A stretch of 30,000 nucleotides of DNA from Actinomycetota bacterium (GCA_013817655.1 JACDCJ010000001.1:1-30000); one strand, 5' to 3'; shown: positions 23,475-28,377, counted from the first letter of the stretch. Notes: generated by a model not told the origin, from the letters alone. Translations and numbers: made by a program.

Positions 23475-24629
23475 TCAGCCGGTTGTGGGAAGGGGGCGGG
23501 TCCCAAGCGTGACCGAGACCGCGAAACGACCGCGGGCGTCGTTCACCAACTCGATCTCGACCTCGTCGTCGGGCTCTCGGGCGAGGATGAGCTCGCCAAG
23601 TTGCTCGGAGCCCTGGATCGACTCACCCTCAAAGGCCACGATCACGTCCCCCGGTTCGATGCCCGCGCCCTGCGCCGGCCCGCCCGGCGCCACATCGATC
23701 ACATAGGCACCGCGATCGACGGGCAGTCCGAACTGGGCGGCGACTCCGGCGTCGACGGTCGTGGTGGTCACGCCCAGGTAGGCGGCCGGCGCCTCCGGAT
23801 CAGCGATGGCACGCTCGATGAAAGGCCTTGCGGCGTTGATGTCGATGGCGAAGCCGATGTTCTCGGCCTCCCCAGCCCCGGCCGTGTTGATACCGACCAC
23901 GTTGCCGGCGAGGTCGACCAGTGGGCCACCGGAGTTTCCGGGATTGATTGGCGCATCCGTCTGCAGGACGTCCTCGAGCGTTCGGACGATCCCCTGTCCG
24001 TCCTGCCCGCCGCCCGGGTCCTGGATCTGAACGGTGCGCGCCAGGGAGCTGATGATCCCGGACGTGACGGAGGGACCACCCGGCAGGGCGAGGGCATACC
24101 CGAGGGCGACCACGCGCTCGCCGAGGGCGACCGAATCGGAGTCCCCGAGCGGCACCGTGGGGAGGTCCTGCTCGTCCACCTTCAGGACGGCCAGGTCGTG
24201 GTCGGAATCGCCGCCGATCACACGCGCCTCGAAGTTCCTGCTGTCCGGCGGCGGGAGGGTGACCATGATGCTGGTGGCTCCCTCGACGACATGGAAGTTG
24301 GTCACGATGATTCCGTCGGACCGGATGATGAATCCGGTCCCCACCCCCTCACCCCCATCGCCGCCGAAGATGGCGTCCCGGCTCTGGGTACGGGTGGTCA
24401 CGTTCACCACGGACGGGGCGACGCGATCCACCACGGTCACCACGGGGTCCTGCGACGGATCGTAAGGGTTGATCGACGGAAGGAGGGGAGTGCTCCTCGG
24501 CTCGGCCACGCGGGCCACCCGGGCGGCGGCGCTGCAGCCGGAGAGGATCAGCGCGGCGACGATGGAGGTCGCAACCAGCCTTGCCGAGCGCCCGGAGGCT
24601 CCCACGGTGCTCGTTCCATCCACCTTCAT
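23475..24629 (-). CDS. htrA: HtrA/DegP-like trypsin protease with PDZ domain, predicted lipoprotein
   Basis: VTNFHVV, DHDLAVLK, INPGNSGGPL triad plus PDZ domain. LSGC lipobox. TATGAT lies 7 nt before ATG 24629. Confidence 0.9.
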   Translation of the reverse strand: MKVDGTSTVGASGRSARLVATSIVAALILSGCSAAARVARVAEPRSTPLLPSINPYDPSQDPVVTVVDRVAPSVVNVTTRTQSRDAIFGGDGGEGVGTGFIIRSDGIIVTNFHVVEGATSIMVTLPPPDSRNFEARVIGGDSDHDLAVLKVDEQDLPTVPLGDSDSVALGERVVALGYALALPGGPSVTSGIISSLARTVQIQDPGGGQDGQGIVRTLEDVLQTDAPINPGNSGGPLVDLAGNVVGINTAGAGEAENIGFAIDINAARPFIERAIADPEAPAAYLGVTTTTVDAGVAAQFGLPVDRGAYVIDVAPGGPAQGAGIEPGDVIVAFEGESIQGSEQLGELILAREPDDEVEIELVNDARGRFAVSVTLGTRPLPTTG

Positions 24630-24637
24630 AGCATCGA

Positions 24638-24657
24638 TCATACGAAGGCACGTATGA
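24638..24657 (-). promoter_or_regulatory. Inverted repeat TCATACG-N6-CGTATGA overlapping the htrA -10
   Basis: Perfect 7-bp arms, seen directly. Operator role is inferred. Confidence 0.5.
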
Positions 24658-25062: not shown

Positions 25063-25467
25063 TCAAACGCCTTCCGCCGCGAGCTCCGTGAGCGTCGGCG
25101 CACAACTGCGGGTGGTTCGGCAGCCACACACGCAGAGCGTGCCGCTCGTGTCACTGACGCAGTCCCTGCACAGGAAGAGCCGGTCACCCTCCAGGCAGCA
25201 GCCCCACGTGTACCCGTTGTACGACCACCCGTCGGGACACAGCTGCCTCGCCCCCCCGTCGCAGTTGCAGGTGACGCCGATGGATCGGCAGGCCGTGCCG
25301 ATGCAGCACTTTGGGTCGGCCGAGGCCGTTTGCGCAAGTACCACCTGCCCAACGCCCAGGCCCGCGAGAACCGCCGACATCTTGGCAAGGAAGCCCCTGC
25401 GTGAGGTCTTTCGATACACGATGCCGGTGCCCTTCTCCACGAGGTCCCGGGTCTGCCGATCGTCCAT
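25063..25467 (-). CDS. Tat-exported, 14-Cys methylamine dehydrogenase light-chain (MauA)-like small protein
   Basis: SRRGFL Tat motif, ASA cleavage site, then C-x5-C-x6-C-x-C-x-GG-x4-CP-x-G-x7-W and RDC, matching the MauA N-terminal half as I recall it. GGAGAG RBS. Confidence 0.72.
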   Translation of the reverse strand: MDDRQTRDLVEKGTGIVYRKTSRRGFLAKMSAVLAGLGVGQVVLAQTASADPKCCIGTACRSIGVTCNCDGGARQLCPDGWSYNGYTWGCCLEGDRLFLCRDCVSDTSGTLCVCGCRTTRSCAPTLTELAAEGV

Positions 25468-25524
25468 GTCCTCTCCATTCTCTCCGCGTTCCGATCAACG
25501 AATGAGCGGCGCTCAGGCCGCGGC

Positions 25525-26283
25525 TCAGGCTCCCACCGCGGCTGCGACGGCGGCACCAAGCACCGCGAAGGTGAGCGTGGTCGAGAGCGCACGCCAAAGC
25601 GGGCCCCGATCCAGACCCCAGAGGACGGGGCCCAGAGAGCCCTCTGTGCCCGCGTTAGCCAGAATCACGGCGGACAGCCCGCGTGCCGCGCCGTACGTCC
25701 CAAGGACCGCAGCGCCGGTGGCCGCGTCGCCGAGGAGTGCGGCCCCGGCCAGGACCACCACGTACCCCGCGTTCGCCACGCGAGTGCCCACCCCCGGCCC
25801 GAGAAGCGCGCCGTAAAGGGCGGCAGTGACCACCGGAGGGTACCGGTAACGCCATGCAGCGGGTACCTGGCGCCCCGATCGGGGCAGGGGAAGGCGGACG
25901 AGCCCGAGCTCCATCGCGCCGTAGCAGGTGGTGACCAGGGCGAGCAAGAGAAGCCGATCCGGCCCGGCCAGCACCAGCAATCCCCCGACGGATCCCACCG
26001 CGAGGCCGGTGAGAGCCCCCGCGAGCGTGGCCGCGACGGCGTGCGCGATGCCCGCGCCCGCTCTGGTCGCCGCGGAACCCCGGACCAGGGTCCCCACCAT
26101 GGACGCCCCTCAGGGCGACGCCAGACTGATGAGGCCCTGGGCGGCGGCGCTCACCGCAACGGCCACCGGCACGAGGGACACCGTTCCAGCGCCGACGGCC
26201 AGAGCGCCCGCAAAGGCGCCCGCCCCGGCGAGCAGCATCATCGCGGGGACGATCCGCCGGCGCGCGACAACCGTGGCGCTCAT
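25525..26283 (-). CDS. MauF/CcdA-like membrane protein with predicted selenocysteine (in-frame TGA at codon 58, 26110-26112)
   Basis: ATG 26283 overlaps the mauD stop (ATGA) and is in frame with the track ORF 25525-26100. Reads ...GLISLASP-TGA-GASMVGTL..., against the MauF STWSPCGYSS motif. C-terminal YGALLGPGVGT. Confidence 0.78.
26072..26097 (-). promoter_or_regulatory. Candidate bacterial SECIS element
   Basis: Stem GGGACCC/GGGUUCC (26094-26088 paired with 26080-26074) closes the loop UGGUCCG, which begins 22 nt after the UGA and contains GGUC. Confidence 0.65.
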
Positions 26284-26876
26284 GACGCCGAGCTCACGGA
26301 GTCGCCCTCCACCCAGACCGCACCCTCTCCCGTTCGAACCCGCCCCTGGATGAGGGAGGAGACCATCTCCCGGTTGTTAACCACTCCACGGCTCCGGACG
26401 ACCCCTGCGGTGTCGACCAGGATGGCCCGCGGCGTGGTGACGATGCCCACCGCTCGCATCGCGGCCCCATCGTCTTGCCACGCCTGGCCGGCGAACCGGG
26501 ACCGGTCGAGCATCGCTCGGGCCTCCTCCGCCGGCCCGGACAAGACCGGAACGATGGCGTGGTCGGGCCAATCCTTCACGACCCCGTCGAGCTCCGAGAG
26601 GAGGTCGGCACACAACGTGCACCGGGTGGACATGAATAGCACTACGGCCGGGCGGCTCCCGAGGTCGGGCGACGAGGGCCGGCCCGATCTGGCATCGGCC
26701 AGGCGCAAGGCCGGGAGGGTCGCCCCCGGCTCCATTCCCTCGAGCGACTCCAGCGCAGGGGCTGCCGGCAGGCGGCGACTGAGCAGACCCACCTCTCGAG
26801 CCAGGGCGAGGATCGCGAGCGCCTCGACGATCGCGAGGATCGCCAGCGCGGCGACGGCGATCCACAGGGCGGTCAC
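26280..26876 (-). CDS. MauD-like membrane-anchored thioredoxin-fold protein
   Basis: N-terminal TM helix, REVGLLSRR, CTLC (CxxC), TPRAILVD, RSRGVVNNREMVSSL. GTG 26876 overlaps the mauE stop (GTGA). Confidence 0.82.
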   Translation of the reverse strand: MTALWIAVAALAILAIVEALAILALAREVGLLSRRLPAAPALESLEGMEPGATLPALRLADARSGRPSSPDLGSRPAVVLFMSTRCTLCADLLSELDGVVKDWPDHAIVPVLSGPAEEARAMLDRSRFAGQAWQDDGAAMRAVGIVTTPRAILVDTAGVVRSRGVVNNREMVSSLIQGRVRTGEGAVWVEGDSVSSAS

Positions 26877-27457
26877 GCGTGCTCCTCGTGAGCGCGGATC
26901 CCGGTCTCGACAGTCGTCAAGAGACGGAGCGCGGCCACGGCAAGGGCGCCCGTGGCGAGGGCGGCAGCGGAGACGATGGCCACCGCGGTCGCCTCGGAAC
27001 CGGAAATCGAAAGAGGTAACGTCGAGCCCCGATCGGTGCCCAGGTGGAAGACGAGCGCCACTGCCGCTAGGCCGAGCAGCCCGATGGTTCGGGCCACGGC
27101 CGCGCCATCGATACGCTCGCCGCGGGAGGCGCCGAAGCACGCACAGGAGGCATCCAGACGGAGGTGTAGGGCCCGGATCAGGACGAGTGCGAACCCAAGG
27201 AGCAGCAACACTGCGGTCGCAAGCCCCACCGTGAGGAAGCGCGACAGCATGGCCGCGGCGGAAGCGATCTCGAGCACCGGCAGAGCCCGTGCCCCCGCCG
27301 GAACCGCCCACCTGAGCCGGACCGGAACTAGGTTACGGGCGGTTTCGACGAAGCCGGCCATATCCCTGAGCTTCGCGATTCCCGCAAGGCCGAGCACCAC
27401 GGCGAGGATCAGGCGAGCGGCCTGCAGAAGCAGCCGATCGACCTCCGACACTTCCAT
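26873..27457 (-). CDS. MauE/DoxX family redox-associated membrane protein
   Basis: LGLAGIAKL, LPVLEI, SCACFG (CxCFG motif), four hydrophobic helices, GGAGG RBS. Confidence 0.87.
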   Translation of the reverse strand: MEVSEVDRLLLQAARLILAVVLGLAGIAKLRDMAGFVETARNLVPVRLRWAVPAGARALPVLEIASAAAMLSRFLTVGLATAVLLLLGFALVLIRALHLRLDASCACFGASRGERIDGAAVARTIGLLGLAAVALVFHLGTDRGSTLPLSISGSEATAVAIVSAAALATGALAVAALRLLTTVETGIRAHEEHA

Positions 27458-27543: not shown

Positions 27544-28377
27544 GTGCGATTCGGCCTGGACGTCGCGCAACACCAGCAGGCGTGGGGAGGGATACTCGAG
27601 CGCGCTCGTTTCGCGGAGGATGCCGGGTTCGACGGCTGCTGGGTCTTCGACCACTTCAAGGCCCTCTATGGCGACCCCGTGGGTCCGTGTCTGGAGGGAT
27701 GGTCACTGCTCGCCGGGCTCGCCGCGGGAACATCGAGGATCCGCCTGGGCGCCCTGGTGACCGGGGCGACCTACCGGCATCCCTCCATCCTCGCGGCCCA
27801 GGCGGTGACCGTCGATCACATCTCGGGTGGGCGGCTCGAGCTCGGCATCGGCGCCGCCTGGTTCGAACGCGAACACGTCGAGCTCGGCATCGACTTCCCC
27901 GGGGTCCGCGAGCGCGGTGAGCGGCTCGACGAAGCGGTCCAGGTCATCCGGTCTCTGATGACCGGTGAGCCCGCGTCGTTTCAGGGGAGGCACTACCAAC
28001 TCCGCAACGCCGTATACCGGCCCCAACCAGTCCAGCAGCCGACGCCTCCGATCTGGATCGGCGCGGGAGGCGAGCGGATGATGCTTCCCATCGTCGCTCG
28101 CCGGGCGGATGTGTGGCACGGGTTCGGGCCCGCAGCGGAGATGCGGCGCAAGTCGCTGATAATCGACCGCCACGCCGAAGCGGCCGGTCGAGATCCCTCG
28201 GAGATCGGGCGCTCGTCGTCCCTGTCCATATCGGAGCCGTGGCACGCCGTCCATCGCAGGGCCGAGGACCTCGCCGGCTCGGGCTTCAACTACCTGATCG
28301 TGTCCTGGCCGTCGGAAGGCCGGGCGCGACTCGAGGAGTTCATCTCCGACGTCATGCCCGACCTCGGTGGCCTGTAG
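27544..28377 (+). CDS. LLM-class (probably F420-dependent) oxidoreductase
   Basis: WVFDHF, LGALVTGATYRHPS, TVDHISGGRLELGIGAAW, PPIWIGAGGE. GGAGG RBS. Confidence 0.9.
   Translation: MRFGLDVAQHQQAWGGILERARFAEDAGFDGCWVFDHFKALYGDPVGPCLEGWSLLAGLAAGTSRIRLGALVTGATYRHPSILAAQAVTVDHISGGRLELGIGAAWFEREHVELGIDFPGVRERGERLDEAVQVIRSLMTGEPASFQGRHYQLRNAVYRPQPVQQPTPPIWIGAGGERMMLPIVARRADVWHGFGPAAEMRRKSLIIDRHAEAAGRDPSEIGRSSSLSISEPWHAVHRRAEDLAGSGFNYLIVSWPSEGRARLEEFISDVMPDLGGL

What the first reader, a model, noticed from the sequence alone, without database searches (positions are those of the whole stretch)
26072..26112. SECIS-like hairpin directly downstream of the UGA
Seen: UGA-GGGGCGUCCAUG-GU(G)GGGACCC-UGGUCCG-GGGUUCC-GC. 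A 7-bp stem (one G-U pair), extendable past a bulged G, closes a loop that begins 22 nt after the UGA with G at loop position 2 and a GGUC core. Established: the E. coli fdhF SECIS has a GGUC apical core about 18 nt past the UGA, and bacterial SECIS models need a G early in the loop at roughly this spacing. This supports recoding independently of the protein motif.
Basis: partly seen in the sequence, partly recalled or inferred. Interest (0 to 1): 0.75.

Follow-up and report, generated by a model that had tools for sequence, protein, structure and literature searches.

The report
SECIS hairpin of hidden MauF selenoprotein
The hairpin is real and is very probably the RNA signal that makes the ribosome read an in-frame UGA as selenocysteine in an unannotated MauF-like membrane protein; the signal is an ordinary bacterial type, but the selenoprotein family is not in current catalogues.

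Summary
Observation confirmed. On the minus strand, UGA (26112-26110) is followed after 15 nt by an 8-bp stem (26094-26087 with 26081-26074) closing a GGUCC loop.

The UGA is almost certainly a Sec codon.
- It joins a 57-aa and a 191-aa ORF into one protein that folds with pLDDT 90. Its five best Swiss-Prot fold matches are all MauF (TM 0.83-0.86).
- It sits at the family's invariant Cys (SP-C/U-G-x-S-M).
- 209 of 294 genomes of the class carry the gene. All but one of the 150 listed matches hold an in-frame TGA, and none of the 54 distinct sequences read has TAA or TAG there.
- The same genome's selD is also a UGA selenoprotein gene.

Stability alone does not single the hairpin out in this GC-rich RNA. 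Comparison does.
- RNAalifold picks it in 11 clade members.
- One pair shows G-U, A-U, G-C and C-G.
- A rare GGU Gly codon is kept in 9 of 11.
- All 8 pairs form against 4.6 expected from the peptide (P about 0.003).
- Its 13-nt apex equals that of the selD hairpin.

Caveats:
- selA, selB and tRNA-Sec are missing from this 74%-complete MAG.
- The apex lies 9 nt nearer the UGA than in selD.
- No Cys form of this clade was available.
- There is no experimental evidence.

This scan had noted the Sec-MauF family before on other DNA.

The parts
26110..26112 (-). In-frame UGA, read as selenocysteine (residue 58 of the 252-aa protein), in the motif LASP-U-GASM
   Evidence: It aligns with the invariant Cys of Cys-form homologues (WSPCGxSM). 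TGA at this column was seen in all 54 distinct Sec-type sequences read.
26095..26109 (-). 15-nt spacer (GGGGCGUCCAUGGUG) between the UGA and the base of the hairpin. It holds the conserved Met codon that gene callers take for a start.
   Evidence: UGA+GG makes a GAGG Shine-Dalgarno-like word 5 nt before the AUG, which explains the truncated gene calls.
26087..26094 (-). 5' arm of the hairpin, GGGACCCU (codons Gly-Thr-Leu)
   Evidence: The third base of the Gly codon covaries with its partner (G, A or C).
26082..26086 (-). Apical loop GGUCC, with G at positions 1-2 and a GU step
   Evidence: The same apex is found in the selD hairpin of this genome.
26074..26081 (-). 3' arm of the hairpin, GGGGUUCC (last bases of Arg, then Gly GGU and Ser UCC)
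   Evidence: The GGU Gly codon is kept in 9 of 11 clade members, against 10% use elsewhere in the same genes.
25525..26283 (-). Full MauF-like selenoprotein gene (252 aa plus stop). Databases hold it as a 57-aa ORF (26283-26110) and a 191-aa ORF (26100-25525).
   Evidence: AF2 model pLDDT 90.3. The five best Swiss-Prot fold matches are all MauF, TM 0.83-0.86 over residues 7-250.
26280..26876 (-). MauD-like thioredoxin-fold gene. Its stop overlaps the start of the selenoprotein gene (ATGA).
   Evidence: TIGR02661 MauD, E 1.3e-11, below the cut-off. Thioredoxin_2 weak hit.
26873..27457 (-). MauE gene, first of the operon
   Evidence: PF07291 MauE, E 1.5e-20, 74 bits.
25063..25467 (-). Small Cys-rich protein with a twin-arginine signal, the likely client of the MauE/D/F-like proteins
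   Evidence: ORF. The TAT signal hit is weak. The same gene order is seen in relatives.

Best explanation
The hairpin is the bacterial selenocysteine insertion sequence (SECIS) of an unannotated selenoprotein gene. The gene (26283-25525, minus strand) encodes a MauF-like polytopic membrane protein whose one invariant cysteine is replaced by selenocysteine, encoded by UGA at 26112-26110.

Inferred mechanism, by analogy with fdhF and other bacterial selenoprotein mRNAs. When the ribosome reaches the UGA, the hairpin 15 nt downstream is still outside the mRNA channel. Its GGUCC apex is bound by the C-terminal winged-helix domains of SelB carrying Sec-tRNA(Sec) and GTP. The tethered complex delivers Sec to the A site before release factor 2 can terminate.

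Shown here:
- the hairpin exists and is under selection at synonymous sites;
- the UGA sits at a Cys/Sec column of a large family;
- the lineage has the Sec machinery;
- the apex matches that of the selD hairpin in the same genome.

Inferred only: SelB binding and actual Sec insertion.
For: (1) The UGA is a Sec codon.
- The read-through protein is one fold (pLDDT 90.3, pTM 0.88). It matches five Swiss-Prot MauF proteins over residues 7-250, TM 0.83-0.86.
- U58 aligns with the only invariant Cys in a 55-sequence alignment.
- Of the 150 best representatives of the family, 81 start at the Met four residues after the U and 53 are full length with WSPCGxSM.
- 209 of 294 genomes of the class carry the gene. 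All but one of the 150 listed matches hold an in-frame TGA, and the exception is cut by a contig end.
- All 54 distinct Sec-type sequences have TGA at this column, never TAA or TAG.

(2) Sec trait.
- selD of this genome has TGA at the known GAG-U-xCK site.
- In the same taxonomic family selA is found in 24 of 26 genomes, selB in 24 of 26, tRNA-Sec in 17 of 26 and selD in 25 of 26.

(3) The hairpin is selected.
- RNAalifold finds it as the consensus structure of 11 distinct clade members.
- 92% of cells pair, against 64-69% when the partner is slid by one column. Pair 30-46 takes four pair types.
- The competing hairpin over the AUG reaches only 73% and has an invariant U.C mismatch.
- Gly GGU is kept in 9 of 11 against 10.4% background, binomial 6e-8 if the sequences were independent.
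- In the window 8 of 8 pairs form against 4.6 expected from synonymous recoding, P 0.003. All 11 members are at or above expectation.

(4) Cys controls.
- At the window's hairpin register the Cys forms make 3.3 of 8 pairs.
- In sister clades, Sec forms exceed expectation for their hairpins and Cys forms do not.
- With the identical peptide SMLSSI, the Sec form L073 uses Ser AGC, which pairs; Cys forms L109 and L110 use UCG, which does not. All 12 Sec forms of that clade use AGC at this Ser.

(5) Same apex as selD.
- CCCNGGUCCNGGG with N-N pairing occurs 4 times in 3.58 million positions of the assembly. Two of the four lie 23 and 32 nt after the two candidate Sec codons.
- A fair prior test (selD apex with at most 2 mismatches) gives about 0.002 for a 30-nt window.
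- The selD hairpin is itself kept in 17 TGA forms and absent from most of the 8 Cys forms in the family.
Against: - selA, selB and tRNA-Sec were not found in this assembly or in its only congener. The two are 74% and 61% complete, and selA and selB are adjacent in relatives, so one missing contig would explain it. Loss in the genus is not excluded.
- The GGUC apex starts 24 nt after the UGA here but 33 nt after it in selD of the same genome. In E. coli the spacing is known to be strict.
- Folding energy is no better than shuffled or synonymously recoded controls.
- Two of the 11 clade members carry an internal A.G or A.C mismatch (L113, L115).
- Four clade members have a CGGGA loop (and L113 CGGGC), without a GU step.
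- No Rfam family matches.
- No Cys form of the window's own clade was available.
- The 11 sequences are related, so the P values are overstated.
- There is no expression or protein evidence.
Confidence: 0.78

Rival explanations
1. The UGA is a Sec codon, but this hairpin is not the element SelB uses. The true signal would be another structure. One candidate is the imperfect hairpin over the AUG (CCAUGGU-GGGG-ACCCUGG), which corresponds to the well-kept first hairpin (H1) of the sister clades. Another is a larger fold. Under this reading the reported hairpin is kept for another reason, such as ribosome pausing or mRNA stability.
For: Sister clades keep a perfect first hairpin 8 nt after the UGA, with a G-C to C-G compensatory swap between clades. 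The window clade retains 73% pairing in that register. The 111-nt MFE uses a different pairing. The reported hairpin's spacing differs from selD by 9 nt.
Against: In the window clade the first-hairpin register has an invariant U.C mismatch and is broken in L111 and L115. The reported hairpin reaches 92% pairing with covariation, and RNAalifold chooses it. It shares the 13-nt apex with the selD hairpin. The two structures overlap, so both cannot form at once.
Confidence: 0.1
2. The UGA is an ordinary stop. A 57-aa membrane peptide and a 191-aa protein are made separately. The hairpin and the GAGG word before the AUG at 26100 would serve termination-reinitiation coupling.
For: Gene callers annotate two ORFs in every database copy. 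UGA+GG creates a Shine-Dalgarno-like GAGG 5 nt before an AUG. The Sec machinery was not found in this assembly.
Against: The break falls exactly on the invariant Cys codon of single-chain homologues, and the Met is conserved in those too. The stop is always TGA in 54 distinct sequences. The joined protein folds as one MauF-like unit in which the first 57 residues are integral. selD of the same genome shows the same UGA-plus-hairpin arrangement at a proven Sec site.
Confidence: 0.05
3. The genus has lost selenocysteine decoding, and both UGA genes (MauF-like and selD) are recent relics. On this reading the hairpin is an inherited SECIS that no longer acts.
For: Both genomes of the genus lack selA, selB and tRNA-Sec in their assemblies.
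Against: The assemblies are 74% and 61% complete. selA and selB are neighbours in relatives, so they would be lost from an assembly together. The downstream frame is intact. The hairpin is fully paired in the window and in an 86%-identical metagenomic copy that differs in the loop and at silent sites. selD with a UGA would be useless without the machinery, yet it is intact in both genomes.
Confidence: 0.05
4. The hairpin is a chance by-product of a GC-rich coding sequence and a conserved peptide (G-T-L ... G-S), with no RNA-level function.
For: Energy z-scores are unremarkable. Several stem bases are fixed by conserved amino acids: expected pairing from the peptide alone is already 4.6 to 5.5 of 8.
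Against: Synonymous positions are constrained. GGU is kept in 9 of 11 against 10% background, and ACY in 11 of 11 against 56%. A non-synonymous change is matched by a synonymous one (L111). Cys forms show no excess pairing.
Confidence: 0.02

Closest known systems
Bacterial SECIS element, type example E. coli fdhF (minimal upper stem-loop with GGUC-containing apical loop bound by SelB)
   Same: It lies in the coding region directly after an in-frame UGA that aligns with Cys in homologues. It has a short GC-rich stem and a small apical loop with G at the first positions and a GU step (GGUCC). The base of the stem is far enough from the UGA (15 nt) to stay outside the ribosome.
   Different: No bulged U was seen. 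The apex begins 24 nt after the UGA; I recall about 18 in fdhF, which was not checked here. The sequence is unrelated, and no Rfam family matches. SelB binding is untested.
selD SECIS-like hairpin of the same genome and taxonomic family (GGCCCAG-GUC-CUGGGCC after SHGAG-U-ACK)
   Same: The 13-nt apex CCCNGGUCCNGGG is the same. It follows a UGA at a Cys/Sec site. It is kept in TGA forms, with A-U/G-C covariation, and is absent from most Cys forms.
   Different: The selD apex starts 33 nt after the UGA, and a first small hairpin fills the gap. Here the apex is 9 nt closer and there is no room for a first hairpin.
Two-hairpin arrangement of the sister Sec-MauF clades (MauE-fused GPUGLSMVETITPVVHGG and STWSPUGxSMLxSITPLGERG)
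   Same: Same gene family and same UGA column. Their second hairpin (CCCCCGUG-GUC-CACGGGGG, or CCCCGCU-CGGGG-AGCGGGG) carries the same two loop types, GGUC and CGGG, that are seen in the window clade.
   Different: Those clades have a first hairpin 8 nt after the UGA and a second with its apex at +33. The window clade has a 3-codon deletion in this stretch and a single hairpin whose 5' arm reuses the ACC codon that forms the 3' arm of their first hairpin.
MauF, methylamine utilisation protein F of Paracoccus, Methylophilus, Methylobacillus and Methylorubrum (Swiss-Prot Q56463, P29897, Q50230, Q50418, Q49123)
   Same: Full-length fold match (TM 0.83-0.86, 25-28% identity). The gene is in an operon with MauE and a MauD-like thioredoxin-fold protein.
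   Different: It carries Sec instead of Cys. No Pfam or NCBIfam model recognises it. The neighbouring client is a small Cys-rich Tat protein with no Pfam match, and no dehydrogenase heavy-chain gene lies beside it in the operon.

Membership tests
Bacterial SECIS element (functional class) | Stem-loop within the coding sequence immediately 3' of an in-frame UGA | tested here: met
   UGA at 26112-26110; hairpin at 26094-26074 on the same strand, 15 nt downstream.
Bacterial SECIS element (functional class) | The UGA corresponds to Cys in homologues, with conserved flanks (the Sec/Cys pair criterion described in PMC1976440) | tested here: met
   SP-U-G-x-S-M against WSP-C-G-x-S-M. 53 Cys forms and 81 forms truncated at the Met after the U among the top 150 representatives. 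It is an invariant column in a 55-sequence alignment.
Bacterial SECIS element (functional class) | Apical loop at a suitable distance from the UGA, with a G among its first bases (the bSECISearch model. The paper was not held, so the figures of 16-37 nt and a 3-14 nt loop are recalled. [quoted passage not shown] | tested here: met
   The loop GGUCC begins 24 nt after the UGA, with G at loop positions 1 and 2. All 11 clade members have G at loop position 1 or 2.
Bacterial SECIS element (functional class) | Structure conserved with compensatory change in Sec forms and not kept in Cys forms | tested here: inconclusive
   Covariation and synonymous-site constraint are met. Cys forms of other clades lack it and lack the sister-clade hairpins. 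No Cys form of the window's own clade could be fetched.
Bacterial SECIS element (functional class) | The organism has selA, selB, selC and selD | tested here: inconclusive
   selD is present and itself UGA-containing. selA, selB and tRNA-Sec were not found in the 74%-complete assembly. They are present in 24, 24 and 17 of 26 genomes of the same family.
Bacterial SECIS element (functional class) | Binds SelB and is required for UGA read-through | not testable with these tools
   This needs reporter, binding or 75Se experiments.
Rfam curated SECIS or other RNA families | Match to a covariance model at or near its gathering score | tested here: not met
   No family reaches its gathering score in the window. 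Only chance-level hits (E of 1.9 or more) appear around the site. Bacterial SECIS elements are specific to gene family and lineage, so this does not count against the functional class.
MauF protein family | Full-length fold and sequence likeness to characterised MauF proteins | tested here: met
   The five top Swiss-Prot fold hits are all MauF: TM 0.83-0.86, 25-28% identity, residues 7-250. The next hits are DsbD membrane domains at TM about 0.4.
MauF protein family | Encoded with mauE and mauD | tested here: met
   MauE (PF07291, 74 bits) and a MauD-like protein (TIGR02661, E 1.3e-11, below the cut-off) lie directly upstream with overlapping stop and start codons.
MauF protein family | Part of a methylamine dehydrogenase cluster (mauB heavy chain, mauA TTQ light chain, mauG) | not tested
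   The operon as read holds only a Cys-rich Tat protein with no Pfam match. I did not search the genome for mauB or mauG.

The most novel reading that the evidence does not exclude
Two points together.

(a) One SelB and ribosome serve two SECIS spacings in a single cell: apex 24 nt after the UGA in the MauF-like gene and 33 nt in selD. The shorter spacing would have been created by a 3-codon deletion that fused the two hairpins of the ancestral gene into one. That would be a natural experiment on SECIS spacing tolerance, which is strict in E. coli.

(b) The element serves a membrane-embedded selenoprotein family (Sec-MauF) that is absent from Pfam, NCBIfam and the searchable literature. The Sec marks MauF's single invariant Cys as a redox-active residue.
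Probability: 0.5. Interest if true: 0.65.

Novelty: new member of a known kind. Interest (0 to 1): 0.5.

Why it matters
The hairpin is the RNA-level evidence, separate from the protein alignment, that the UGA is recoded. That turns two "hypothetical protein" calls into one MauF-like selenoprotein.

- The family is widespread in uncultured soil Actinomycetota: 209 of 294 genomes of the class.
- Gene callers truncate it everywhere, and it has no Pfam or NCBIfam model. Selenoproteome surveys and annotation pipelines therefore miss it.
- Selenocysteine at MauF's only invariant cysteine argues that this long-obscure helper of methylamine-dehydrogenase maturation does thiol/selenol redox chemistry in the membrane. 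That can be tested.
- The conserved hairpins, with Cys-form controls, give a clean data set for defining what actinobacterial SelB recognises and how much UGA-to-SECIS spacing it tolerates.

Tried and rejected
- **Folding energy as a test.** Dinucleotide shuffles and synonymous recoding of 48 nt do not separate the hairpin from background. They also do not separate Sec from Cys forms (Mann-Whitney P 0.11). I replaced this with position-specific pair counts.
- **Rfam.** No family at gathering score, only chance hits.
- **Genome-wide scan for new selenoprotein genes.** I searched for TGA, open frames on both sides and a GGUC-topped hairpin. It gave 86 hits, nearly all out-of-frame noise typical of GC-rich DNA, so it is not usable for finding further selenoprotein genes.
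- **The other two copies of the apex motif.** Both are chance. One lies inside a normal gene ending ...PGSWGPPEADALLGPVR; the other is not preceded by a TGA.
- **The search for related loci.** With the wide alignment it failed for lack of a conserved stretch. With the close alignment it found only one genome locus and no metagenome locus, because a pattern with Cys cannot match TGA. A DNA pattern search then gave three more clade members and one chance match, L072.
- **tblastn against plasmids.** Queries with a Cys form, MauE and the MauD-like protein, meant to reach an annotated proteobacterial mau cluster, gave no usable match. The MauF relation rests on the fold search.
- **Literature.** Searches for MauF or MauE with selenocysteine or selenoprotein found nothing relevant.
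It is not conserved in the clade.
- **Unpublished genomes.** G032, G182, G183, G283, G294 and G405 are marked unpublished.
  - They contribute to the tallies.
  - L099 (G294) is one of the sequences behind.
  - L131 (G283) is one of those behind.
  - No conclusion depends on them alone.

Full report
**1. What is there**

The finding lies on the minus strand. Reading 5' to 3': UCG CCC UGA GGG GCG UCC AUG GUG GGG ACC CUG GUC CGG GGU UCC GCG. The UGA is at window 26112-26110.

It extends inward by a U-G pair, which gives:
- 8 bp (26094-26087 with 26081-26074);
- a 5-nt loop GGUCC (26086-26082);
- a 15-nt spacer after the UGA.

RNAfold draws the same hairpin with one more closing pair.

**2. The UGA is in frame and sits on a conserved cysteine**

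A 57-aa ORF (26283-26110, ending ...LISLASP) and a 191-aa ORF (26100-25525, MVGTLVRG...) are in the same frame. Read through, they give a 252-aa protein with the motif LASP-U-GASM.

- **Operon context.** The gene is third in an operon: MauE (PF07291, 74 bits), a MauD-like thioredoxin-fold protein (TIGR02661, E 1.3e-11), this gene, then a Cys-rich Tat-signal protein.
- **Closest database homologues.** They are all called at 191-193 aa and start at the same Met. Their contigs show the same 57-aa ORF, an in-frame TGA and 9 nt before the ATG.
- **Exhaustive profile search.** It finds 3953 representative clusters. Of the best 150, 81 start at that Met and 53 are full length with WSPCGxSM at the same column.
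- **Invariant column.** In a 55-sequence alignment this Cys/Sec column is invariant.
- **Spread in genomes.**
  - 209 of 294 genomes of the class have the gene.
  - All but one of the 150 listed matches hold an in-frame TGA. The exception is cut by a contig end.
  - In an even sample of the phylum, 48 of 301 genomes have it.
- **Only TGA.** Every one of 54 distinct Sec-type sequences I read has TGA, never TAA or TAG, at this column.
- **Fold.**
  - An AlphaFold model of the read-through protein is confident throughout (pLDDT 90.3, pTM 0.88).
  - Its five best Swiss-Prot matches are all MauF (TM 0.83-0.86 over residues 7-250).
  - The 57 N-terminal residues therefore belong to the same protein.
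- **No family model.** No Pfam or NCBIfam model covers the family.

**3. Sec machinery**

The assembly is a 1.79-Mb MAG, 74% complete. selD is present and is itself a UGA gene at the classic SHGAG-U-ACK site. selA, selB and tRNA-Sec were not found, nor in the one congener, which is 61% complete.

In the other 26 genomes of the same family:

| Gene | Genomes with it |
|---|---|
| selA | 24 of 26 |
| selB | 24 of 26 |
| tRNA-Sec | 17 of 26 |
| selD | 25 of 26 |

selA and selB are neighbours there, so one unassembled contig would remove both. This point remains open for the window's genome.

**4. Is the hairpin more than chance?**

Energy does not say so. The z-score is +1.25 for 61 nt and -1.6 for 111 nt against dinucleotide shuffles. 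Against synonymous recoding of the same peptide it is about -0.3. In 70%-GC RNA almost anything folds.

Comparison does say so. I collected 11 distinct members of the window's clade (SLASP-U-G-x-S-M-x-G-T-L), at 40-86% protein identity.

- **Consensus structure.** RNAalifold, given no hint, returns this hairpin as the consensus structure after the UGA.
- **Pair counts.** 92% of cells pair, against 69% and 64% when the partner is slid by one column.
  - Three pairs never vary.
  - Three vary on one side only (C-G/U-G, U-A/U-G, G-C/G-U).
  - One pair (the third base of the Gly codon against the first base of the Ser/Pro/Ala codon) takes G-U, A-U, G-C and C-G.
  - The C-G case (L111) joins a Ser-to-Ala replacement (UCN to GCU) to a synonymous GGR-to-GGC change. 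This is what RNA-level selection predicts.
- **Rare codon kept.** The Gly codon of the 3' arm is GGU in 9 of 11, although GGU makes up 10.4% of Gly codons in the rest of the same genes. Its U pairs with the A of Thr ACC.
- **Synonymous resampling.** I resampled synonymous codons from the family's own usage. The window forms 8 of 8 pairs against 4.6 expected (P about 0.003). All 11 members are at or above expectation.
- **Competing hairpin.** The hairpin over the AUG reaches only 73% pairing, with an invariant U.C mismatch.
- **Exceptions.** Two members (L113, L115) have one internal mismatch.

**5. Cys controls and sister clades**

No Cys form of the window's own clade was available. Nine Cys forms of other clades make 3.3 of 8 pairs in this register.

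The two large sister clades (MauE-fused GPUGLSMVETITPVVHGG, and STWSPUGxSMLxSITPLGERG) keep two hairpins.
- H1 lies 8 nt after the UGA: GAUGGU-NNNN-ACCAUC in one clade, GAUGCU-NNNN-AGCAUC in the other. That is a G-C to C-G swap.
- H2 has its apex 33 nt after the UGA.

| Hairpin | Sec forms, observed vs expected | Cys forms, observed vs expected |
|---|---|---|
| H1 (6 pairs) | 5.8 vs 4.4 | 3.1 vs 3.1 |
| H2 (7 pairs) | 6.7 vs 4.9 | 3.8 vs 3.0 |

The identical peptide SMLSSI gives a direct comparison. The Sec form L073 encodes the second Ser as AGC, which pairs. The Cys forms L109 and L110 use UCG, which does not. All 12 Sec forms of that clade use AGC at this Ser. In this family, structure after the codon goes with UGA and not with UGC/UGU.

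**6. Link to selD in the same genome**

selD of this assembly carries GGCCCAG-GUC-CUGGGCC after its UGA. In the taxonomic family, 17 TGA-type selD genes keep this hairpin, with an A-U/G-C compensatory change in two. Most of the eight TGC/TGT forms lack it.

Its apex and the window's share CCCNGGUCCNGGG.
- With N-N pairing, this word occurs four times in 3.58 million positions of the assembly.
- Two of the four follow the two candidate Sec codons. The other two are chance.
- That pattern was chosen after the fact. I therefore also counted the selD apex with up to two mismatches: 228 positions, or about 0.002 for a 30-nt window.
- H2 of the MauE-fused clade has the same G-GUC-C top and the same +33 register as selD.

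**7. What remains odd**

- The window's apex is 9 nt nearer the UGA than selD's. The window clade has a 3-codon deletion in this stretch relative to the fused clade. The single hairpin looks like their H2 moved up, reusing the Thr ACC codon that forms the 3' arm of their H1.
- Whether one SelB tolerates both spacings is unknown.
- Several clade members, and some genomes whose selD has GGUC, use a CGGG-type loop without a GU step.

**8. Verdict**

- It belongs to a MauF-like selenoprotein family that I could not find in Pfam, NCBIfam or the searchable literature.
- After I had formed this reading, the scan's own notes showed that the Sec-MauF family had been reported several times on other genomes. 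I treat those as leads and re-tested the claims here.
- SelB binding and Sec insertion are inferred, not shown.

**9. Unpublished genomes**

Genomes marked unpublished (G032, G182, G183, G283, G294, G405) enter only the tallies and two of the many sequences (L099, L131).

Noticed in passing
Own genome, contig C13:8076-8999 (locus L015, TGA at locus position 1531-1533): selD of this MAG is itself a selenoprotein gene (SHGAG-U-ACK). It has a hairpin GGCCCAG-GUC-CUGGGCC whose apex begins 33 nt after the UGA. 17 of 25 selD genes in the taxonomic family are TGA forms with this hairpin, and 8 are Cys forms, most of which lack it.
   Followed up: yes
Loci L025-L057, L095-L102 (MauE-fused clade) and L060-L094 (STWSPUG clade): Sister Sec-MauF clades keep two adjacent hairpins after the UGA, not one. 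H1 shows a G-C to C-G swap between the clades. It is maintained by Ser AGC in Sec forms, where Cys forms with the same peptide use UCG.
   Followed up: partly
window 25063-27457, minus strand: The four genes are translationally coupled: MauE, a MauD-like thioredoxin, the Sec-MauF-like protein, and a 134-aa Tat-signal protein with many Cys and no Pfam match. No dehydrogenase heavy-chain gene lies beside them. In the sister clade, MauF and MauE are fused into one protein of about 400 aa (P0017).
   Followed up: partly
window 26100-26112, minus strand: UGA followed by GG makes a GAGG Shine-Dalgarno-like word 5 nt before a conserved internal AUG. This is probably why every gene caller starts the gene there and why databases hold hundreds of N-terminally truncated entries.
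   Followed up: partly
Own genome G000 and congener G281: Both assemblies of the genus lack selA, selB and tRNA-Sec while keeping UGA-type selD and MauF-like genes. Incompleteness (74% and 61%) is the likely reason, but it is not proven.
   Followed up: partly
window 23475-24641, minus strand: Downstream of the operon lies an ORF of 388 aa. Its counterpart in a relative's contig carries trypsin and PDZ domains (HtrA-like protease; L023).
   Followed up: no
window 27544-28377, plus strand: An ORF of 277 aa begins MRFGLDV and diverges from the operon. I did not scan it against any library.
   Followed up: no
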